Assembly (NCBI GenBank): GCA_029258835.1
Contig: JAPDJY010000067.1
Location: 1 to 25,048 of the forward strand
From: Thermoproteota archaeon
GTDB taxonomy: Archaea > Asgardarchaeota > Jordiarchaeia > Jordiarchaeales > Freyrarchaeaceae
Length of the DNA: 25,048 bases
Reading direction: 5' to 3'
The position numbers and the translations under genes were made by a program. This document shows, piece by piece, positions 7,348 through 16,323 of this stretch (position 1 is the first letter of the stretch; each line of letters begins with the position of its first letter). The notes under the pieces were generated by a model that saw nothing but the letters and a program-made list of their open reading frames with translations, was not told the origin of the DNA and made no database searches.

Positions 7348-7413
7348 GAAATGTCCGTTGCCGCCCTTAAAAGATTTAAAACAGATAATGAAATAAGAAT
7401 AATAGGTGGCAGA

Positions 7414-7707
7414 ATGGAAAAACTTGATGAGATAAGGAAGATCATTGGGGAGCACAAAGAGGAGCTTAGAGAGCAGTATGGTGTCAAGGAAATTGGTATT
7501 TTCGGCTCCTTTGTGAGGGGGGAGGCGAGGGAGGATAGTGACGTTGACGTACTGGTTGAATTTGAGAAACCGATAGGGTTCTTTAGGTTTCTCGAATTGG
7601 AGGAATACCTGGGCAGTTTGACAGGTAGAAAAGTGGACCTTGTATCTAAAAAGGCACTTAAGCCGCACATTGGGAAACATATTCTTGAAGAGGTTATAAT
7701 AATATGA
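7414..7707 (+). CDS. mntA: MNT (minimal nucleotidyltransferase) antitoxin, MntA-like
   Basis: GSFVRGEAREDSDVD fits GSX10DXD; C-terminal GRKVDLV. ATG at 7414 follows AGGTGG. Confidence 0.9.
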   Translation: MEKLDEIRKIIGEHKEELREQYGVKEIGIFGSFVRGEAREDSDVDVLVEFEKPIGFFRFLELEEYLGSLTGRKVDLVSKKALKPHIGKHILEEVIII

Positions 7708-8054
7708 GAAGAACATACAGGGATTACATACTGGACATTTTGTCGTCTATCCAAGAGGTTGAGGAGTTCACCGAGGGCATGGGCTTTGAAGAATTTGTAA
7801 AGGACAGAAAAACTGTAAATGCTGTTATTAGAAGTCTGAAGGTGATGGGTGAGGCAGCGAAGAAAATTCCTTCGGAAATCAGGGACAAATACCCGGAAAT
7901 TCCATGGAAATACATCGCAGGCATGAGAGATAAGCTGATTCACGAATATCACGGCGTTGATTTAGAAATCGTATGGGAAGTCATAGAAAAGGAAGTTCCG
8001 CCTCTCAAACCCAAATTCGAAAAAATACTAGAGGAGTTGAAGAGGCGAAGTTGA
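7704..8054 (+). CDS. hepT: HEPN (DUF86/HepT-like) RNase toxin
   Basis: GMRDKLIHEY fits RX4HXY; GEAAKKIP and PEIPW also present. ATGA overlap with the MNT gene. Confidence 0.9.
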   Translation: MRRTYRDYILDILSSIQEVEEFTEGMGFEEFVKDRKTVNAVIRSLKVMGEAAKKIPSEIRDKYPEIPWKYIAGMRDKLIHEYHGVDLEIVWEVIEKEVPPLKPKFEKILEELKRRS

Positions 8055-8517: not shown

Positions 8518-9813
8518 TTAGACGAATTTCCTTCTGTCCTCTAGTAGTCTTGCACTTTCTGGTATATCTCCTGGGTTCACTATTTCGACTTCAGACTTTA
8601 TCCTCAGGGCCTGCTTAAACTCTTCCTCTAAGATTTTCTTCATTTCTTCGAACTTTGATGGATCCTTGCATTCCACCTTGATCGTCATTACGTCTGTTAC
8701 CCCTGGGCGCTCAACTATTATCTGGAACCTGCCAAGTTCTGGATGTCTTTTCACGACTTCCTCGGCTTGCTTTGGATGTATGAATACGCCTTTAACCTTC
8801 GTTAACATGTCTATTCTTCCTAGGATTCCCATCAGCCTTGCCTCGGTGCGTCCGCACTCGCACTTCTCCACGTTCAGGACGGAAGCATCCCCTGTCCTGT
8901 AGCGTATTAAGGGGAGAGCCTCCCTTTCGAGTGGGGTTGCAACTATTTCTCCTTCCTCCCCTGGCTCGACAGGCTCCAAGGTGTTCGGGTCGATTATCTC
9001 TATGAGGTAAAACTCCTCGTTAATGTGCATTCCATTATGGTACTGGCACTCACGCGACATAACTCCTAGCTCGGCTACGCCGTAAGCGTCGAAAAGCTCC
9101 ATGTCAAAGGTTTCCTCAAGGTACTTCCTCAGGGAGGGTGGGAGAGGCTCTGCTCCGCACAGTCCAACCCTTAACTTCAAATCCTTCTTGGGGTCTATGC
9201 CCATCTTCTTCGCTTCCTCAGCCAGCCTAGCGAGGAAGCTCGGTGTTCCAGCGTATATTGTTGTCCCAAGAGATTTCATGAATTCAAGCTGCATCCTGCT
9301 CTCACCCGGACCAGCCGGTATGATCGTTAGGCCTGCACTCTCGGCAGCCATGTGGACGAAGAAGCCAGCGGGCATAAAGTGGTAGGAAAGGGTTATTTGT
9401 ATGACGTCGCCTGGCTGAGGCTCGTAAACGTGCGTTTTAAGGAGGATCCTTCTAGTTATTTCGAGGTCTTTCTCCGTGTAGGGTTCAAAAATGGGCCCTG
9501 GGGAAATGAATACCAAGCGTAGCTTCTCCTTCGGGACGGCTAGGAATTCCCCATATGGGGGATGCTGCCTCTGGTTAGCTACAAGCTCGTGCTTACTTGT
9601 GAAGGGAACCTTCTTGAAGAAGTCGTCTAAGCTTCTTATGTCGTCTGGTTTCACGCCAGCCTCGTCAAACTTCCTGTGATAGTAGGGTGAGTTCTCGTAC
9701 GCATACCTCACCATAGCCAGTGCCTTCTTCTCCTGCAGGCGTCTCAGTTCCTCCCTACTCATTGTCTCGGTTTCAAACAGTGGCCTACCCAAAATCCCTC
9801 CTCCTAAAGCCAC
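8518..9813 (-). CDS. Phenylacetate-CoA ligase family protein, SPGP-loop subtype
   Basis: ETMSREEL, FISPGPIFEP, GTPSF, GAEP, DAYGVAE, PLIRYRTGD, CECGRT, GRIDMLTKVKGVFIHP. Confidence 0.88.
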   Translation of the reverse strand: MALGGGILGRPLFETETMSREELRRLQEKKALAMVRYAYENSPYYHRKFDEAGVKPDDIRSLDDFFKKVPFTSKHELVANQRQHPPYGEFLAVPKEKLRLVFISPGPIFEPYTEKDLEITRRILLKTHVYEPQPGDVIQITLSYHFMPAGFFVHMAAESAGLTIIPAGPGESRMQLEFMKSLGTTIYAGTPSFLARLAEEAKKMGIDPKKDLKLRVGLCGAEPLPPSLRKYLEETFDMELFDAYGVAELGVMSRECQYHNGMHINEEFYLIEIIDPNTLEPVEPGEEGEIVATPLEREALPLIRYRTGDASVLNVEKCECGRTEARLMGILGRIDMLTKVKGVFIHPKQAEEVVKRHPELGRFQIIVERPGVTDVMTIKVECKDPSKFEEMKKILEEEFKQALRIKSEVEIVNPGDIPESARLLEDRRKFV

Positions 9814-10112: not shown

Positions 10113-10935
10113 TTATGTTTTATTAATATTTTGTTTCATCTTGGAAAAGTTTCCTTTGAAGAAGGTACACTCCTTAATGCAGATACCGCAGCCAAGAGTT
10201 TTAGAAAATACTTTTGCACATTTTGTATAATCTATATGCTTTTCACGGCCATTATTCAAAATCTCTGCCTTTTTGAATATCGCCTTCGCCGGGCATGCAG
10301 AGACGCGGTGATTGTAGATTTCACAGAAATCTGGAATCCAAGAGTATTTCTCTGCATTAGAATCCGTGACAGGAAGATTTTCTATGTCGGTATATATCGC
10401 GGCAATCCTCTGGGATGGGCCATTTCTCTCGGAAACTAAAAGGTCTCTCGGAAATTAAAAGGCCATGCTTTCCGATATGTCCAAGTCCCGCCTTTTTGAG
10501 CGAGAAGAACAAAGTTTGTGCTGCCACCTATAGGAGGGTCAGACTGTGCATTATAACCTCTTTTTCATAAATTCTGAGAGTCTGTAGACTGCCTTGCTAA
10601 GTTCTGCATAAGTTCTCCACACCTCCCCCTGCAATTACGCTTAGTGCCTGTTTTATTCTTTCTTTATCCCGTGTCCGTTATAAGGGCTATAGCGTTTTTG
10701 AACAGAAGCAGCCTGTTGCTGAAGATATGTTCTCTTGGAGCTTCCGTATCCTATAGCGGAGCAGCCGAGCTTCTTTGCATAAGCTTCCAGCTCCATGAAG
10801 AATTTTTCATCCGCTTTCTTCCTGGCATCCTGTAGAATCCTTTTAATGCTCTCCGAGCTTTTTCTTGTATAATATGGTCTTTAAAAGGTACGGTAGTGCA
10901 ATCAGCGTCTTCAACATATGCCTTGCGAAGCAGTT
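10113..10935 (-). pseudogene. Decayed reductive dehalogenase / epoxyqueuosine reductase (QueG)-like protein with two [4Fe-4S] motifs
   Basis: Stitched minus-strand frames read ELEAYAKKLGCSAIGY ... TYAELSKAVYRLSEFM ... GGSTNFVLLAQK-GLGHIGKHGLLISER/NGPSQRIAAIYTDIENLP ... FCEIYNHRVSACPAKAI ... KCAKVFSKTLGCGICIKECTFF-stop. Several frameshifts, a 19-bp duplication and two lost Cys. Confidence 0.8.
10425..10462. repeat. 19-bp tandem duplication that frameshifts the Fe-S pseudogene
   Basis: tctctcggaaactaaaagg / tctctcggaaattaaaagg, one mismatch. Confidence 0.9.
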
Positions 10936-11113
10936 AAATGTTTGGTGGGTGTTTGTGAGTGCTGGTTTGGCCACGGGGTGGCCTATGGGGTGGAGTCTTC
11001 GGATGGGGGGCTCCGGGGTTACCCCGAATGCTCCATCAGGGCTTAGCCCGATGATGGGGAAACGCCTGACAGACCAAAACACACATCTACCTATAAAAAC
11101 CTATCAAGCGTGA
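10936..11113 (+). mobile_element. Probable non-autonomous remnant of an IS200/IS605/IS607 element (3' end of tnpB, omegaRNA-like region)
   Basis: Abrupt GC-rich, hairpin-dense segment. The + frame encodes LRMGGSGVTPNAPSGLSPMMGK...stop, which I recall as resembling the tail after the last RuvC motif of archaeal TnpB. Boundaries are approximate. Confidence 0.45.
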
Positions 11114-11212
11114 ACCCCAACTTACACCACCACTAACTGCAACAACCTCGGGAACTCTCATACCTCTGGAGAAGTGGAGAGAGGTTTTACTAGTGGGGTG
11201 TCCTCTGGTACA

Positions 11213-11321
11213 AGGTTCCTGACGTCTGGAAGAACGAAAAATACCAATTTTCTGGATAACTTAATTCCAGCTTTCGTCTTCTTTTCACCGTCAAAGAGGA
11301 AGTCAGATATACCTGTTAGGC
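11213..11321 (-). repeat. Long imperfect palindrome with a GCCTAAC/GTTAGGC core; degenerate attC-like site
   Basis: Nested arms AGGT/ACCT, CTGAC/GTCAG, AAGAACGAAA/TTTCGTCTT and CTGGA/TCCAG, with GTTAGGC at 11315-11321. Confidence 0.35.
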
Positions 11322-11594
11322 GAGTGGGTTATTTCATTTTCCATAATTCGTAGCTTTTCCCTCTTTCACACGTCCACCAGTCTCCAATTTTCCTCTGGTT
11401 TCACCTTGCCGTTTAACATGTTTTGCGGCTTCGTCAGAGATGGCGGTGGGCTAGCCTCCGGCATGAGCGTTCTTTAACGGGCTGAAACATCGACTAGCTT
11501 CAACGATTGGTGGCCGATTTCTTACTGGAAAGTAAAACTTGAGGCCAAATACGGTTAGTCTAGAAACCTTTTAGAGAGGATAAACTCTTTTAAT

Positions 11595-13229
11595 ATGGAT
11601 CTGGAGGGAGGTGGAATGGTTAAGGGCTTGTCCATGGAGGATCATGTCCTTAAGAGCAGCTTTAGGATGGCTTATGGATTGGAGGCTTACGCCGCCACCA
11701 GTAGTGTGGCTGAGATAATGTCCGAGCTTGTGAAGGCTAGCTTGGGGCCGAGAGGGAGGGTTAAGCTCCTCGTCGACAAGTACGGGAACTTTAAGGTGAC
11801 AGGGAGCGGGGTGGAAATCCTTAAGGAAGTTGAGGCGAAGCACCCTGTCGCTAAAACCCTCGTTGAAATAGCTAAAACGCAGAACAGGAACGTCCGTGAC
11901 GGAGTTAAGAGGGCTGTCATAATGGCTGGCAAACTGGCTGAGGAAGCCTACAAGCTGATAGGACGTGAGGGGTTGCATCCGAACATCGTCGTGAGGGGAT
12001 ACCTAGCTGCAACTAAGATGGCTGTGAAGTTTCTAAGGGAAGCAGCAACCCCCGCCAGGTCGGACGGCGGACTACTCTTCAGAGCTGCTCTAACATCGGT
12101 CAACGGGTTCAATGGAGGAGGACACCTTGCAGACATAGCGGTCAGGGTGGTTAAAAGCGTCTCCGGCGAGGTGGAGGACAAGGTTCTGGTGAGAGTTAAG
12201 GAGGGAGGAAGCGTCCTAGACTCGGAATTCGTCGACGGGGTTATAATAAATAAGGAGGTTGCAAACCCGAACATGCCCAGGCGGGTGGAGGAGGCGAGGA
12301 TACTCGTCGTCAAGCAGAAGCTCTACATAGAGAAGAGGTTTGAACATGCCGACTATGCTGTCCCGGAGCTTGTCTTAGATGATGCTGGAGACCTTAAAGC
12401 TGCACTTAACACTAGGAGGGAGATGGCTTTGAGGTGGCTTAAAGGCATACTTGAGAGCGGTGCGAACGTGGTAGTCAATTATTATGGTATAGACGGGATT
12501 TTAGAGGAGTTGATGGCGAGGCATGGGATCCTAGCAGTAAGGAGGGCGGATGAGGAATCCTTTAAGAGGCTGGCTGAGGCTTGCGGGGCGAAGATAATTG
12601 GGGACGTCGGCAGGGTCGCCCCCAGCGACCTAGGGTATGCAAGGGTTGTTGAGGAGAGAAAGGTTGGAGGAGGGGCGAGAGCGGATAAGATGGTTTTCGT
12701 TAGAGGGTGCAGGAACCCTAAGACGGTGAGCGTGCTTGTTAAGGGTGGAACGTGGGAGGTCGCTGAGGAAGCTGAGAGGATGCTGTGGAAAGCCATTCGA
12801 GCCGCCTATAACGTGGTTAGGGATGGATACGTGGTCGGAGGAGGGGGAGCTATAGAGGAGGAGGTTGCAATGAGACTAAGAGATTACGCTGAAGGAGTGG
12901 AGGGACGAGAGCAGTTCGCTATTAAAGCGTTCGCCAACGCGCTAGAGGAGGTTCCGAGGGTTTTAGCACTCAACGCTGGGGCGAACCCCGTCGACGTCAT
13001 AGCAGAGTTGCGTGTAGCCCATAGGAGTGGAGACCTATGGGCGGGGGTTGACGCTCTCTCAGGCCGCGTGAGGAACATGTTTGAAGCAGGCATAGTGGAG
13101 GCTGCAACGGTTGTGGAGCACGCCTTAAAGGTTGCAGGTGAAACCACCGTTGCACTATTAGGGTTGGACGCAATATATGTAACCAAGGGGAGGGTTTTAC
13201 CCGGCGGTAGACCGGAAGAAAGCGAGTGA
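11595..13229 (+). CDS. Divergent group II chaperonin (thermosome/TCP-1 family) with degenerate ATPase motifs
   Basis: SLGPRG, HPVAKTLVE, LHPNIVVRGY, DSEFVDGVII, MPRRVEEARI, VGGGGA, AFANALEEVPRVLALNAG. GDGTT is replaced by RDGVK, TNDG by TGSG, and ERSLHDA by ERMLWKA. Confidence 0.9.
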   Translation: MDLEGGGMVKGLSMEDHVLKSSFRMAYGLEAYAATSSVAEIMSELVKASLGPRGRVKLLVDKYGNFKVTGSGVEILKEVEAKHPVAKTLVEIAKTQNRNVRDGVKRAVIMAGKLAEEAYKLIGREGLHPNIVVRGYLAATKMAVKFLREAATPARSDGGLLFRAALTSVNGFNGGGHLADIAVRVVKSVSGEVEDKVLVRVKEGGSVLDSEFVDGVIINKEVANPNMPRRVEEARILVVKQKLYIEKRFEHADYAVPELVLDDAGDLKAALNTRREMALRWLKGILESGANVVVNYYGIDGILEELMARHGILAVRRADEESFKRLAEACGAKIIGDVGRVAPSDLGYARVVEERKVGGGARADKMVFVRGCRNPKTVSVLVKGGTWEVAEEAERMLWKAIRAAYNVVRDGYVVGGGGAIEEEVAMRLRDYAEGVEGREQFAIKAFANALEEVPRVLALNAGANPVDVIAELRVAHRSGDLWAGVDALSGRVRNMFEAGIVEAATVVEHALKVAGETTVALLGLDAIYVTKGRVLPGGRPEESE

Positions 13230-13345
13230 TAGACGGATTCTTCAAAGAGTATGTAGATAAAATATTTTACTTAGTTTTTGGAAGGCGGCATACGTAAAAA
13301 ATATAGAGAAGGTTGACACTTTAAACTTTGGAGAAATGGTAGGAT

Positions 13346-13969
13346 GTGGCCGCGTTGCTTAGCTTATCCAATGAGGTTACGATTAAGAGGCACTGCAACG
13401 TTGACGACGTTAAGGAGAAGGGGATTGATAAGGGGATCGGGGCTTTCTCCGGGAGCGCTGAGAAGGAAAAAGAAAAGTTGATCTCCGTTATCGAGAAGGG
13501 AGGATACGTGACGATAGCCTACACGCTGGAGAACGTGATAGTGGGGTTTATATCGCTGGACAAGTGGACTATTCCAGCGGGAAGGGTTGTTTTCGAGACA
13601 ATATATGAGCTTGTGGCTGAGGTTAGTAAGGAGTGGAGGGGGAGGGGAATAGCGTTCGCCATGCTCACGTTCACGTTCGAAGACCCGTTCTTCGACGACA
13701 AAATAGTGATCGCAAGGGGGATATCCTCTTACTGGGATCTAACCATGCTTGAGAAGGAAACATACAGGAGGCGGCTCCTCAACGGGTTAAAGGCGGCGGG
13801 TTTCGCCGACTGGAGCGATAACAACCCATTCGGCGGAGAGTTCCTAGCGGTGAGGATAGGAAGCAAAGCTGACCCCTACCTTGTGGAGCACCTCGACGAG
13901 GTGTTCGCCAGGCAGGCAAGCACCATATACGAAACGGAAACAGTCCAGATCTTCGGGGACAAGTTTTAA
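13346..13969 (+). CDS. acuA: AcuA-like GNAT protein lysine acetyltransferase
   Basis: YELVAEVSKEWRGRGIA (motif A), DDKIVIARGISSYWDL, YRRRL and LAVRIGSK are collinear with Bacillus AcuA segments as I recall them. Confidence 0.72.
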   Translation: MAALLSLSNEVTIKRHCNVDDVKEKGIDKGIGAFSGSAEKEKEKLISVIEKGGYVTIAYTLENVIVGFISLDKWTIPAGRVVFETIYELVAEVSKEWRGRGIAFAMLTFTFEDPFFDDKIVIARGISSYWDLTMLEKETYRRRLLNGLKAAGFADWSDNNPFGGEFLAVRIGSKADPYLVEHLDEVFARQASTIYETETVQIFGDKF

Positions 13970-14226: not shown

Positions 14227-15339
14227 ATGACAATAGGAGGTGGGGTTTTGGAGGAGTGGAGGTACGTAACAAGAGACATCGACATGGTTGATACTGCTGC
14301 TATACCTCCGGCGGTCATTCAAGCTGTAAGTAAGGGTTCTGCCCCCAGTACCGTTGCGGTGGTTGGATTCACGGTTCCAGGTATAAGCATAGGTTACTTC
14401 CAAGACATAGATACTGAGGTGGATTACGAGAAGGCTAAGGGGCTTGGAATACAGGTCATTCGGAGGTATGGGGTTGGAGGGGGAACGATCTTTGTGGATC
14501 CTAAGGGTAGCATGGCCATGTTCATGGTTTTCAATAAGGACTTCTTTAAAGATATGGATGAGGCGTTCGTGAAGGTTGGAGAGGCCATAGCAGACTTCTA
14601 TAAGAAGGTTGGCGTAGAGGGAGCGTGGTATAAGCACATAGGCGACGTGAAGGTTGGAGATAGGAAGATAACAGGGTTCGGCTTCGTTACGGTCGGCAAC
14701 CTGATGGTGCAGAACACCATAATAGGGGTGGGCGACATAAATGTTAAATTGTTCATGCAGGCGGCGAAGATCCCACCGGAGAAGTTTCAGGACAAGAAGG
14801 CGAAGGACGTAGCCGAGTGGGTGACAAACATTCAGAAGGAAACCGGGAGGCTGCCAAGTAAGGAGGAAGTCCAGAAAGCAATGAAGGAGGCGCTTGAAGA
14901 ACATCTTAACATAACTCTGACGCCAGGGGAGCTAACCGAGGAAGAGGAAAACATAAGGCAATCATTCCGGAAGATGGTTCTTTCCGAGGAGCACACCTTC
15001 GCCTTCTCAAGTGCACGCAGGTTCCCAACCGTCCCTTCAGGATACAAGTTCGGCTGGGCGAGGTACAAGGCGCGCAAGCTCCTAGTAGCCCATGCCATGA
15101 TAGATAGGGAAGGGAGAATATCAGATGTCATGTTCTCGGGGGACTTCTACTGCAGCCCTGCTCAGTACCTCAAAGACATAGAGGAAAACCTTAAGGGAGT
15201 TGAGGCAATAGACAGGGAGGTAATCCTGGGAAAAGTGAAGGAGATTTACAGCAGACCTGACTGGCAGATACCCATGGTCGACGCAGAAGACTTCGTTGAA
15301 GCCTTGAGAAGAGCCGTGGAGAACGCTCTGGAAAAATAA
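14227..15339 (+). CDS. lplA: Lipoate-protein ligase A family, catalytic domain plus C-terminal accessory domain
   Basis: ISIGYFQD, VIRRYGVGGGTIFVD, GDVKVGDRKITG, C-terminal MFSGDFY. The true start may be the TTG at 14248. Confidence 0.85.
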   Translation: MTIGGGVLEEWRYVTRDIDMVDTAAIPPAVIQAVSKGSAPSTVAVVGFTVPGISIGYFQDIDTEVDYEKAKGLGIQVIRRYGVGGGTIFVDPKGSMAMFMVFNKDFFKDMDEAFVKVGEAIADFYKKVGVEGAWYKHIGDVKVGDRKITGFGFVTVGNLMVQNTIIGVGDINVKLFMQAAKIPPEKFQDKKAKDVAEWVTNIQKETGRLPSKEEVQKAMKEALEEHLNITLTPGELTEEEENIRQSFRKMVLSEEHTFAFSSARRFPTVPSGYKFGWARYKARKLLVAHAMIDREGRISDVMFSGDFYCSPAQYLKDIEENLKGVEAIDREVILGKVKEIYSRPDWQIPMVDAEDFVEALRRAVENALEK

Positions 15340-15619: not shown

Positions 15620-15958
15620 GTGGTGTTCACGATGCTCGGTGTGTACCTTGATCTTAGAGCGGACGAAGACTGGATTAGGCTTGTTGAAGCTTTCACGAGG
15701 AAGCTGAGGCTACGCGTTCCGGGCGTCGTTAAGGTGGTTGCTCTCGCCAGCCCTGAGGAGAGGGTCTACGATAGCAACGTCCTAGTGGTTGTGGAGGAGG
15801 AAGAGGAGCTAATAGAAAGAAGGGTGGTTGACGCAGCCATCGAAGCTGAGGAGGAAACAGGCATGCACGGGCAGCTAAGCCCCATAACCTGCACCATCAA
15901 AGAACCACTACTGGAAAGGTTTATTGGCGGGTTTACAGTAGAGGTTGAACACTTATGA
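15620..15958 (+). CDS. Divergent MNT-fold protein, putative antitoxin
   Basis: VVKVVALASPEERVYDSNVLVVVE occupies the position of GS...DxD; C-terminal GQLSPI; ATGA overlap with the HEPN gene. Confidence 0.55.
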   Translation: MVFTMLGVYLDLRADEDWIRLVEAFTRKLRLRVPGVVKVVALASPEERVYDSNVLVVVEEEEELIERRVVDAAIEAEEETGMHGQLSPITCTIKEPLLERFIGGFTVEVEHL

Positions 15959-16323
15959 GTGTGGCTAAGTCTAGGGTCCTGATGGGTGAGGCTAGAAAGG
16001 ACGTTGAGATAGGCTGCTACGGTAAGGCCGTTAGCGCAGCGTACTTCGCCCTTAGAATGGCCGTGGAGAGGTACCTTGAGAGGCTTGGAGCGCCCTTCTC
16101 CAAGAAAGACGATAAGCTGGCTAATACGATGCGTAGCTTGGGGTTAAAGGAGGTTTCATACGCTATGAGGGTTCTATTCCAAGCGAGGAAGAGGGCGGAC
16201 CATGGCAGCAAGTTCTTCACTAGGAGGGAGGCTGAGGAGTTGGTGGCTATGGCAGAGGAGGCGTGGAGGAGAATTCTTGAAGCGCTCAGGGAGAGAGAAG
16301 CTCGAGAGAGAGGGGGAACATGA
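15955..16323 (+). CDS. HEPN domain protein (UPF0332-like)
   Basis: YGKAVSAAYFA, LFQARKRADHG (RX4H), FTRREAEELVAMAEE. Confidence 0.8.
   Translation: MSVAKSRVLMGEARKDVEIGCYGKAVSAAYFALRMAVERYLERLGAPFSKKDDKLANTMRSLGLKEVSYAMRVLFQARKRADHGSKFFTRREAEELVAMAEEAWRRILEALREREARERGGT

What the first reader, a model, noticed from the sequence alone, without database searches (positions are those of the whole stretch)
11595..13229. Full-length group II chaperonin with its ATPase signature residues replaced
Seen: an intact 544-aa thermosome-fold ORF with GDGTT changed to RDGVK, TNDG to TGSG, GPKGMDK to GPRGRVK, and the catalytic Asp of ERSLHDA to Lys (ERMLWKA). Structural motifs are kept and there is no GGM tail. 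Established: these residues bind and hydrolyse ATP. Unequal ATP use among subunits is a hallmark of eukaryotic CCT, and degenerate chaperonin-like proteins (BBS6/10/12) act as assembly factors. Inference: an ATPase-dead archaeal subunit or specialised scaffold, relevant to how hetero-oligomeric chaperonins diversified, especially if the host is Asgard.
Basis: partly seen in the sequence, partly recalled or inferred. Interest (0 to 1): 0.75.

Follow-up and report, generated by a model that had tools for sequence, protein, structure and literature searches.

The report
ATPase-dead basic thermosome paralog, Asgard archaeon
An Asgard archaeon carries, beside two normal copies of the protein-folding cage (thermosome), an intact third copy that has lost the residues needed to split ATP. 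This copy has also turned from acidic to neutral or basic. It resembles the division of labour seen in the eukaryotic chaperonin, but such dead copies turn out to be common in archaea.

Summary
Window 11595-13229 (+) is an intact 544-codon group II chaperonin gene, more likely 537 codons from the ATG at 11616. It reads GPRGRVK, TGSG, RDGVKR and ERMLWKA where its two sister genes in the same genome read GP(R/L)GMDK, TNDG, GDGTTT and ER...DA. The gamma-phosphate-sensing Lys is also lost (Phe). The fold is intact (AlphaFold pLDDT 89; TM 0.87-0.92 to solved thermosomes).

The host is an Asgard archaeon. It has eukaryote-type actin, EAP30 and Vps25, and its class holds a closed 3,576,204-bp genome that matches Freyarchaeia in size.

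The protein belongs to a well-supported clade ("X") in which every member has the catalytic Asp replaced by Asn and has pI 7.7-9.3, against 4.8-5.2 for canonical subunits. The window copy is the most degenerate member and sits on a long branch. Its only close relatives are strain variants about 99% identical that carry the same motifs. All other relatives are 45% identical or less.

My best reading is a non-hydrolysing ring member or a stand-alone holdase; the data do not decide between them.

It is not unique: 53 of 151 related cluster representatives lack the catalytic Asp, and this scan noted similar paralogs in at least 8 other genomes. No conserved gene neighbourhood was found, and no link to CCT could be tested.

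The parts
11595..13229 (+). Divergent group II chaperonin (thermosome) paralog, 544 aa from the first ATG; clade X1
   Evidence: ORF and translation. Pfam PF00118 at 429.7 bits. NCBIfam thermosome_beta 450 bits (cut-off 400), but thermosome_arch 434 bits, far below its cut-off of 671. AlphaFold2 pLDDT 89.2, pTM 0.85. Foldseek TM 0.87-0.92 to Mm-cpn and Thermococcus KS-1 subunits.
11603..11618 (+). Shine-Dalgarno-like GGAGGGAGGTGGA followed by ATG 11616 (Met8), the probable true start (537 aa)
   Evidence: Sequence; a 537-aa member of the 90% cluster. This is an inference.
11745..11765 (+). GPRGRVK (aa 51-57) in place of GP(K/R)GMDK: Met to Arg, Asp to Val; the Gly-Pro dipeptide is kept
   Evidence: Alignments
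11799..11810 (+). TGSG (aa 69-72) in place of TNDG: first catalytic Asp (GroEL D52 equivalent) is Ser71
   Evidence: All six clade-X sisters in alignment A6 keep this Asp.
11895..11912 (+). RDGVKR (aa 101-106) in place of GDGTTT: Gly to Arg, Thr to Val, Thr to Lys, Thr to Arg; Asp102 is kept
12102..12110 (+). NGF (aa 170-172): the nucleotide-sensing-loop Lys (Mm-cpn K161 equivalent) is Phe172
   Evidence: role of K161 from PMC5220055
12333..12365 (+). Lid (helical protrusion) segment carrying the 5-residue insertion shared only with subclade X1
   Evidence: Alignment block; low pLDDT at residues 250-257
12666..12686 (+). GGGARAD: 4-residue insertion shared only with subclade X1 (P0003, L018, P0151)
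12774..12794 (+). ERMLWKA (aa 394-400): second catalytic Asp (Mm-cpn D386, GroEL D398 equivalent) is Lys399; it is Asn in all other clade-X members
   Evidence: PDB entry titles use D386A as the pre-hydrolysis ATP-bound mutant.
12837..12851 (+). GGGGA (aa 415-419): conserved glycine-rich nucleotide-pocket motif, kept
13263..13312 (+). T-runs (TATTTTACTTAGTTTTT) followed by an A/T-rich TATA-like box ahead of the next gene. The chaperonin gene is probably transcribed alone.
   Evidence: Sequence. This is an inference; no transcript data.

Best explanation
The gene encodes a folded, selectively maintained thermosome paralog that can no longer hydrolyse ATP. Both catalytic aspartates and the gamma-phosphate-sensing lysine are gone, and four extra basic side chains sit in the phosphate-binding motifs.

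It is the most derived member of an old paralog clade (X). In that clade the catalytic Asp is always Asn and the protein is basic rather than acidic.

The most likely mode of action is as a non-catalytic ring member. It would co-assemble with the two canonical, acidic, ATPase-competent subunits of the same genome. Those neighbours would drive lid closure, while this subunit would contribute a differently charged wall and lid segment and so change which substrates the chamber handles. This parallels the eukaryotic TRiC/CCT complex, whose low-ATP-affinity subunits CCT3/6/8 form the positive half of the chamber.

Shown: loss of the residues, an intact fold, clade membership, the charge shift, and presence of canonical partners.
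Inferred: loss of hydrolysis.
Not shown: co-assembly and any effect on substrates.
For: - Motif losses are verified against solved thermosomes and the genome's own paralogs.
- The genome has exactly three Cpn60_TCP1 genes. Two are canonical at every motif (673 and 656 bits) and this one scores 430 bits.
- The full three-domain fold with lid and terminal strands is predicted with confidence (pLDDT 89.2) and matches closed thermosome and CCT subunits at TM 0.87-0.92.
- Clade X has UFBoot/SH-aLRT support of 98/93, and subclade X1 including the window copy has 100/97. X1 also shares two indels. All other X members read ER.L.N(A/S/T) and lack the Asp of GMDK.
- The window copy keeps 109 of 166 columns that are at least 90% conserved in canonical thermosomes, the same range as its sisters (100-117).
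- The ORF is open after a branch of 1.34 changes per site. The same motifs occur in the five longer members (424-544 aa) of its 90% cluster, seen in assemblies from at least three sources.
- The 12 changes between strains give dN/dS of about 0.44, and five of the seven amino-acid changes are conservative (I/V, K/R, D/E).
- Clade X has pI 7.7-9.3 (net +1 to +15), against pI 4.8-5.2 (net -19 to -31) for the canonical subunits.
- In TRiC, CCT3-6-8 form the positive hemisphere and are among the low-ATP-affinity subunits (PMC11004407).
- Every genome of the class that is at least 83% complete has two canonical genes plus at least one divergent paralog.
Against: - There is no direct evidence of co-assembly.
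- No gene neighbourhood is conserved across clade X. The neighbours are CysRS in genus g3, a SepSecS-like gene and HMG-CoA reductase beside P0003, and MFS and an AMP-ligase in L018.
- The nearest relatives (X1) sit on a contig whose other genes are only 28-43% identical to this genome, and their database label is Bathyarchaeota. This patchy, possibly horizontal distribution fits an autonomous protein better than a co-evolved ring member.
- The N-terminal strand motif (PVLILKEG) and the C-terminal RIDD motif, which lie in the terminal segments that form ring contacts in solved thermosomes, are remodelled in the clade.
- Between strains the protein differs at 7-8 residues, against 0-1 for the canonical paralogs, so constraint is weaker.
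- Whole-protein charge is not chamber-wall charge.
Confidence: 0.42

Rival explanations
1. It is a stand-alone, ATP-independent chaperonin-like protein: a holdase, assembly factor or scaffold. It would work outside the canonical thermosome ring, as a monomer or in its own static oligomer, in the way the eukaryotic BBS6/10/12 chaperonin-like proteins are thought to act.
For: - Hydrolysis residues are lost throughout clade X, so the clade has long worked without its own ATP cycle.
- The distribution is patchy, and the closest relatives are in distant organisms.
- The terminal segments are remodelled.
- The charge is basic, unlike any canonical subunit.
- BBS-type proteins show the same pattern: the Gly-Pro dipeptide is kept while the hydrolysis motif degenerates (PMC2846930).
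- Earlier notes of this scan tie other degenerate thermosome clades to particular operons as private helpers (unchecked here).
Against: - The built-in lid, which matters only if a ring closes, is kept and even carries a clade-specific conserved insertion.
- No conserved partner gene or operon was found for this clade.
- The equatorial domain and both terminal strands are still predicted.
Confidence: 0.3
2. It is a redundant duplicate under relaxed constraint, drifting towards loss. The motif changes would then be decay, not specialisation.
For: - The end branch is very long: 1.34 changes per site against 0.13-0.71 for its sisters.
- Between strains the protein changes 7-8 residues, against 0-1 in the canonical paralogs.
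- dN/dS of 0.44 rests on only 12 changes and is not distinguishable from 1.
- Changes are not concentrated in the pocket (p = 0.37).
- The sister genus g2 lacks clade X altogether.
Against: - A 544-codon frame stays open after more than one change per site. My rough estimate is that neutral drift over that branch would have produced tens of stop codons.
- It keeps as many canonical-conserved columns as its sisters (109 against 100-117 of 166).
- The fold is predicted with confidence.
- Five of the seven amino-acid differences between strains are conservative.
- The same allele family was recovered from at least three independent data sources.
Confidence: 0.12
3. It still binds nucleotide, and perhaps slowly hydrolyses it, through the retained Gly-Pro, Asp102 and GGGGA elements. 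It would then act as a nucleotide-sensing regulatory subunit, not a dead one.
For: - Gly-Pro, the Asp of GDG and the GGG motif are all kept.
- The Gly-Pro dipeptide is regarded as crucial for ATP binding (PMC2846930).
- GDGTK occurs in the Sulfolobus beta subunit.
Against: - Arg replaces the first Gly of the phosphate loop, and Val replaces the first Thr.
- Both catalytic Asp residues and the gamma-phosphate Lys are lost.
- Mm-cpn D386A alone is used as the hydrolysis-blocked form, as the PDB titles show.
Confidence: 0.1

Closest known systems
Archaeal thermosome subunits (group II chaperonin; e.g. Sulfolobus solfataricus alpha/beta 4xcg/6xhi, Methanococcus maripaludis Mm-cpn 3kfb/3rus, Thermococcus KS-1 1q2v)
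   Same: Same Pfam family; 36-39% identity. Same three-domain fold with built-in lid (TM 0.87-0.92). Gly-Pro, the Asp of GDG and GGG are kept.
   Different: Both catalytic Asp residues and the sensing-loop Lys are replaced. Four new basic residues sit in the phosphate motifs. pI is 7.7 instead of about 5. There is no Gly/Met or acidic tail. It scores far below the TIGR02339 cut-off (434 against 671 bits).
Extra thermosome subunits in hetero-oligomers (Sulfolobus gamma; three to five subunits in Haloferax and Methanosarcina)
   Same: A third paralog beside two canonical ones in one genome. It could plausibly change the composition and substrate range of the complex. The existence of up to five subunit types is stated in PMC5220055.
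   Different: As far as I know, those extra subunits keep their ATP motifs; this was not re-checked here. This copy and its clade do not.
Eukaryotic TRiC/CCT low-ATP-affinity subunits (CCT3/6/8)
   Same: Labour is divided between ATP-using subunits and others, and the weak-ATP subunits form the positively charged half of the chamber (PMC11004407). Here the ATP-site-degenerate paralogs are the basic ones.
   Different: To my knowledge CCT subunits keep the catalytic residues. No CCT equivalog model is met: the best is CCT-eta at 282 bits against a cut-off of 669. Phylogenetic affinity was not tested. The resemblance is an analogy.
BBS6 (MKKS), BBS10 and BBS12 chaperonin-like proteins
   Same: Group II chaperonin fold is kept and Gly-Pro is kept. 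The hydrolysis motif is degenerate, and BBS12 is judged to have lost activity (PMC2846930).
   Different: Those are vertebrate or eukaryotic lineages derived from CCT and carry large insertions. This is an archaeal thermosome-type sequence with only 4-5-residue insertions.
Other ATP-site-degenerate thermosome paralogs seen in metagenomes and in this scan
   Same: Of 151 rows taken from the 150 nearest 50%-identity cluster representatives, 53 lack the catalytic Asp, 18 lack both Asp residues, and 11 also lack the sensing Lys. Clade Y in the sister genus reads TSSG/TSNG and ER...NG. Earlier notes describe further clades.
   Different: This one belongs to a separate clade (X1) with its own indels. 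Unlike the operon-linked clades described in those notes, it has no conserved neighbourhood.

Membership tests
Group II chaperonin / Cpn60_TCP1 (PF00118) | Full-length match to the family model above the curated cut-off | tested here: met
   429.7 bits against a cut-off of 34.3; profile positions 2-488 of 490
Group II chaperonin / Cpn60_TCP1 (PF00118) | Equatorial, intermediate and apical domains with a built-in helical lid | tested here: met
   AlphaFold2 pLDDT 89.2, pTM 0.85. Foldseek TM 0.87-0.92 to closed Mm-cpn, KS-1, thermosome and CCT chains.
Group II chaperonin / Cpn60_TCP1 (PF00118) | Catalytic Asp pair (TNDG and ER...DA), the GDGTT phosphate loop and the sensing-loop Lys | tested here: not met
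   TGSG, ERMLWKA, RDGVKR and NGF
Group II chaperonin / Cpn60_TCP1 (PF00118) | Assembly into double rings of 8 or 9 subunits | not testable with these tools
   Two full chains exceed the 1000-residue limit of the complex predictor. A pass would in any case mostly reflect likeness to solved structures.
Archaeal thermosome subunit (NCBIfam TIGR02339 subfamily; NF041083 and NF041082 equivalogs) | Score above the curated cut-offs | tested here: inconclusive
   thermosome_beta 450 bits (cut-off 400): met. thermosome_alpha 444 (cut-off 450): not met. thermosome_arch 434 (cut-off 671): not met.
Eukaryotic CCT subunits (TIGR02340-02347) | Score above any equivalog cut-off | tested here: not met
   The best is CCT-eta at 281.6 bits against a cut-off of 669.2. 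The CCT-to-thermosome score ratio (about 0.63) equals that of ordinary thermosomes such as P0156.
Eukaryotic CCT subunits (TIGR02340-02347) | Branches with CCT in a phylogeny | not tested
   No eukaryotic CCT or BBS sequences could be obtained by reference. All ten candidates checked were archaeal thermosome type.
Clade X (this report): basic thermosome paralogs without the catalytic Asp | Monophyly, plus KLY.EK, GG(S/T)W, LGYA and ACG signatures, and a non-Asp residue at the catalytic position | tested here: met
   Tree support 98/93; X1 100/97. Signatures. The window copy has Lys where all the others have Asn.
Group III (bacterial thermosome-like) chaperonins | Closest similarity to Carboxydothermus-type chaperonins, which lack the nucleotide-sensing loop | tested here: not met
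   All top sequence and fold matches are archaeal group II or CCT chains. The loop is present; only its Lys is replaced.

The most novel reading that the evidence does not exclude
Asgard archaea of the Freyarchaeia/Jordarchaeia class may have independently built a TRiC-like, functionally partitioned chaperonin. Acidic ATP-hydrolysing subunits would power closure, and dedicated basic pseudo-ATPase subunits (clades X and Y) would form a positively charged part of the chamber. In the sister family this would extend to seven chaperonin modules per genome, including a covalently fused pair. The window protein would be the extreme case of a nucleotide-blind ring member. That would be a prokaryotic precedent for the ATP-use and charge asymmetry thought to be a eukaryotic innovation.
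Probability: 0.2. Interest if true: 0.85.

Novelty: new variant of a known kind. Interest (0 to 1): 0.55.

Why it matters
Unequal ATP use and a charge-split folding chamber are regarded as hallmarks of the eukaryotic chaperonin TRiC/CCT. Here an Asgard archaeon keeps two ordinary acidic, ATP-competent thermosome genes. It also keeps a conserved type of basic paralog that cannot hydrolyse ATP.

If these proteins share rings, specialisation of chaperonin subunits into "motor" and "wall" roles arose in archaea too, and could be studied in a three-gene system.

If they do not share rings, archaea have BBS-like chaperonin-derived helpers whose job is unknown.

Either way, many archaeal genes now auto-named "thermosome subunit beta" are probably not ATPases: 53 of 151 related cluster representatives lack the catalytic Asp. 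I found no paper describing this among the 8.4 million searched.

Tried and rejected
- Conserved neighbourhood or a dedicated-operon reading: rejected. The flanking genes differ in every clade-X locus examined. The apparent synteny with L018 (AMP-ligase, LplA, DHDPS) is coincidental, because its genes are only 28-43% identical to this genome.
- Enrichment of substitutions in the nucleotide pocket: not significant. The count is 8/20 against 49/146 (p = 0.37); for window-specific changes it is 7/20 against 37/146 (p = 0.25).
- Contaminant contig: rejected. The flanking AMP-ligase is 76% and the LplA-like gene 52% identical to genes of a genome of the same class.
- The back-translated pattern scan of the GTDB genomes gave only an irrelevant Prevotellaceae GroEL-like hit.
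- Looking up P0136, a cluster member said to lie on a 1.69-Mb contig, returned no record.
- No Rfam family or tRNA was found in the window.
- The search for eukaryotic CCT sequences among the representatives failed. All ten tested were thermosome type, so no tree with CCT or BBS proteins was made.
- Complex prediction was not run. Two full chains exceed 1000 residues, and a pass for any pair of group II chaperonins would mostly reflect likeness to solved rings.
- The correlation of basic charge with loss of the catalytic Asp across representatives is only a trend. The median net charge is +2 against -6 (Mann-Whitney p = 0.002), the rows are not independent, and the set is biased towards divergent proteins.
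Full report
**1. The observation**

Window 11595-13229 (+) is an uninterrupted ORF of 544 codons.
- Pfam finds one full-length Cpn60_TCP1 domain at 429.7 bits.
- NCBIfam puts it above the cut-off of the thermosome_beta equivalog (450 against 400 bits). It falls far below the archaeal thermosome subfamily cut-off (434 against 671) and below every CCT model.
- The best solved relatives are Sulfolobus thermosome beta (6xhi, 4xcg), the Thermococcus KS-1 alpha subunit and Mm-cpn, with E about 1e-104 to 1e-96.

- GPRGRVK for GP(K/R)GMDK
- TGSG for TNDG
- RDGVKR for GDGTTT
- ERMLWKA for ER...DA

I add one more loss. The Lys of the nucleotide-sensing loop is Phe172. In Mm-cpn that Lys (K161) contacts the gamma-phosphate of ATP (PMC5220055).

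Kept features are the Gly-Pro dipeptide, Asp102, GGGGA and the whole fold. The tail has no Gly/Met repeat, unlike paralog P0123.

Two corrections of detail:
- GDGT(T>K) also occurs in the Sulfolobus beta subunit (ADGTK), so that change alone means little.
- The real start is probably ATG 11616, which follows a strong Shine-Dalgarno-like GGAGGGAGGTGGA. One database member of the cluster is 537 aa.

**2. The fold**

An AlphaFold2 model built on a 62-sequence alignment has mean pLDDT 89.2 and pTM 0.85. Low confidence is confined to residues 1-21, 250-257 (the tip of the lid, at a clade-specific insertion) and 533-544. Foldseek aligns the model to closed-state Mm-cpn, KS-1, thermosome and human CCT chains at TM 0.87-0.92. 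The protein is a complete group II chaperonin subunit, not a fragment.

**3. The genome and the host**

The window is contig C38 of a 2.72-Mb, 91-contig assembly (94.7% complete, 6% contamination). The assembly has exactly three Cpn60_TCP1 genes. The other two, P0124 on C10 and P0123 on C2, score 673 and 656 bits and are canonical at every motif.

The genome encodes three eukaryotic signature proteins:
- a eukaryote-type actin (468 bits to Pfam Actin, full length)
- an EAP30/Vps22-36-like protein (77.8 bits)
- a Vps25-type ESCRT-II protein (36.6 bits)

None of these reaches its cut-off in the archaeal control genomes. This is the signature of an Asgard archaeon.

Its class holds only 11 species genomes. 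One is a closed genome of 3,576,204 bp, which equals the 3.58-Mbp complete Freyarchaeia genome (PMC11291895). Other groups call that lineage Jordarchaeia. I therefore infer a Freyarchaeia/Jordarchaeia host.

The contig belongs to that lineage. Its AMP-ligase is 76% and its LplA-like gene 52% identical to genes of a genome of the same class.

**4. Relatives**

A search of 5.8 billion 90%-identity clusters returns one cluster at 99% identity and then nothing above 45%.

The 99% cluster has six members from ENA, NCBI, JGI and Logan assemblies. Five of them (424-544 aa) carry all the changed motifs; the sixth is a 50-residue fragment.

The next relatives are:
- P0003, whose cluster is labelled Bathyarchaeota by two submitters
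- L018:7893-9470, the full form of P0004
- P0151

These three share with the window protein a 5-residue insertion in the lid, a 4-residue GGAR insertion, GGTWE and L.LNAG. A careful maximum-likelihood tree (LG+C20 PMSF) joins them at 100/97; I call this X1. X1 joins a second group, X2, at 98/93. X2 occurs in all six genomes of the sister family and in one other Asgard family.

All other X members have Asn at the catalytic Asp, no Asp in GMDK, and Lys at the second Thr of GDGTT. They keep the Asp of (T/S)NDG (TKDG in P0151) and the first Gly of GDG.

So the loss of the hydrolytic Asp is old and clade-wide. The further losses are specific to the window lineage: Asp71 equivalent to Ser, Gly to Arg, the sensing Lys to Phe, and Asn to Lys. 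That lineage sits on a long branch of 1.34 changes per site, against 0.13-0.71 for its sisters.

The organisms that carry the other X1 genes are not close relatives. Genes flanking L018 are 28-43% identical to this genome. The history may therefore include horizontal transfer or ancient paralogy with losses. I cannot tell which.

**5. Selection**

Evidence for purifying selection:
- The frame is open after more than one change per site.
- The protein keeps 109 of 166 columns that are at least 90% conserved among canonical thermosomes, the same range as its sisters (100-117).
- Between strains there are 5 synonymous and 7 non-synonymous changes, five of the seven conservative. That gives dN/dS of about 0.44.

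These points argue against a pseudogene.

Evidence for weaker constraint:
- The numbers are small.
- The protein differs at 7-8 residues between strains, where the canonical paralogs differ at 0-1. Constraint is clearly weaker than on the housekeeping subunits.
- Substitutions are not concentrated in the nucleotide pocket (8/20 against 49/146 conserved columns, p = 0.37). The protein has diverged everywhere, and the pocket is not spared.

**6.

Clade X proteins are neutral to basic (pI 7.7-9.3, net +1 to +15). The canonical subunits of this genome and of other archaea are strongly acidic (pI 4.8-5.2, net -19 to -31).

A second divergent clade, Y, is the third paralog in the sister genus. There it reads TSSG/TSNG and ER...NG, and it is basic too.

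Across 139 full-length cluster representatives, those without the catalytic Asp have a higher net charge (median +2 against -6, p = 0.002). The rows are not independent, and the set is biased towards divergent proteins.

In TRiC the lids of CCT3-6-8 form the positive hemisphere of the closed chamber, and CCT3/6/8/7 are the low-ATP-affinity subunits (PMC11004407). The parallel is suggestive, but whole-protein charge is not wall charge.

**7. Context**

The gene has its own T-rich stop region. A TATA-like box precedes the next gene, a weak GNAT-like protein. The surrounding genes are AMP-forming ligases, an LplA-like ligase, indolepyruvate-type oxidoreductase subunits, a deacetylase and two nucleotidyltransferase/HEPN pairs. 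None of these is conserved beside other clade-X genes. Unlike the operon-linked degenerate thermosomes described in earlier notes of this scan, this clade has no evident private partner.

**8. How it most likely works**

Loss of both Asp residues that activate the attacking water is decisive for hydrolysis. These are the GroEL D52/D398 pair, D60/D386 in Mm-cpn. The D386A mutant is the standard hydrolysis-blocked form (PDB titles). With the sensing Lys also lost, hydrolysis is very unlikely.

Binding of nucleotide cannot be excluded, because Gly-Pro, Asp102 and GGG remain (PMC2846930).

A lid that is kept makes most sense in a ring that closes, and only the two canonical paralogs can power closure. 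I therefore favour a non-catalytic ring member that alters the chamber (0.42). The alternatives are:
- a stand-alone holdase or assembly factor of the BBS type (0.30), which is favoured by the patchy distribution and the remodelled termini
- relaxed decay (0.12)
- residual nucleotide-dependent function (0.10)

**9. Novelty and score**

The literature searches found no description of archaeal thermosome paralogs without catalytic residues, nor of chaperonin paralogy in this Asgard class. A 2017 review gives five as the known maximum of thermosome genes per archaeon (PMC5220055).

The phenomenon is nevertheless widespread. Among 151 rows from the 150 nearest 50%-identity cluster representatives, 53 lack the catalytic Asp, 18 lack both Asp residues and 11 also lack the Lys. 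This scan has already flagged such paralogs in at least eight other genomes.

The case here is a new, lineage-isolated variant of a known kind of protein. It sits in an interesting host and comes with an unexpected charge reversal, but there is no functional evidence and no demonstrated link to CCT. Interest 0.55.

Noticed in passing
window 10925-11085 (+), inside the 1.15-kb ORF-poor spacer 10440-11594: A GC-rich element folds far better than shuffles (-70.3 kcal/mol, z = -3.2). It has no Rfam or tRNA match. Against the ~99% strain loci, one hairpin changes on both sides (stem GGGC/GCCC becomes GAGGC/GCCUC). The rest of the spacer carries 1-2-nt indels, so it is not coding. This is a candidate unannotated structured RNA.
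   Followed up: partly
L036 (G006:C1:3110200-3114100) and proteins P0150, P0152: Two different chaperonin units are encoded as one protein of 1047-1087 aa. It is conserved in at least four genomes of the sister family. The N-unit keeps its catalytic Asp residues; the C-unit does not.
   Followed up: partly
G006 (closed 3.58-Mb genome of the sister family): L031-L036: One genome holds seven chaperonin modules: two canonical, X2, Y, a further divergent one and the fused pair. This is more than the maximum of five thermosome genes stated in a 2017 review (PMC5220055).
   Followed up: partly
L025, L027, L030 (third paralog of sister genus g2): The sister genus lacks clade X. Its third paralog (clade Y) has independently lost the same residues: TSSG/TSNG, ER...NG, and the sensing Lys is R, S or F. 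It is also basic. The clade-Y copy in G006 still has both Asp residues, so the loss looks convergent.
   Followed up: partly
window 13346-13969 (+): A 207-aa gene lies 116 nt downstream and has only weak GNAT-type acetyltransferase matches (E about 0.007). Another first-stage note on this window reads it as AcuA-like. It is not found beside other clade-X genes.
   Followed up: partly
window 7351-8054 (+) and 15620-16323 (+): There are two small overlapping gene pairs. In the strain locus the first pair is annotated NTP_transf_2 plus HepT-like. The second pair is an unassigned 112-aa ORF followed by a HEPN-domain ORF. The first, and perhaps the second, looks like a nucleotidyltransferase/HEPN toxin-antitoxin module.
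   Followed up: no
G009 (sister family), matches to window 8518-9813 and 14227-15339: The AMP-forming ligase and the LplA-like ligase of the window belong to strongly expanded families. One related genome has 10 and 12 matches respectively.
   Followed up: no
window 10865-11480 against L020:7275-7883: A 202-aa gene is called just upstream of the chaperonin in a ~99% strain. The window has no equivalent open frame; only an 82-aa ORF is present. The two differ by small indels, so the gene call is doubtful or the gene is broken here.
   Followed up: partly
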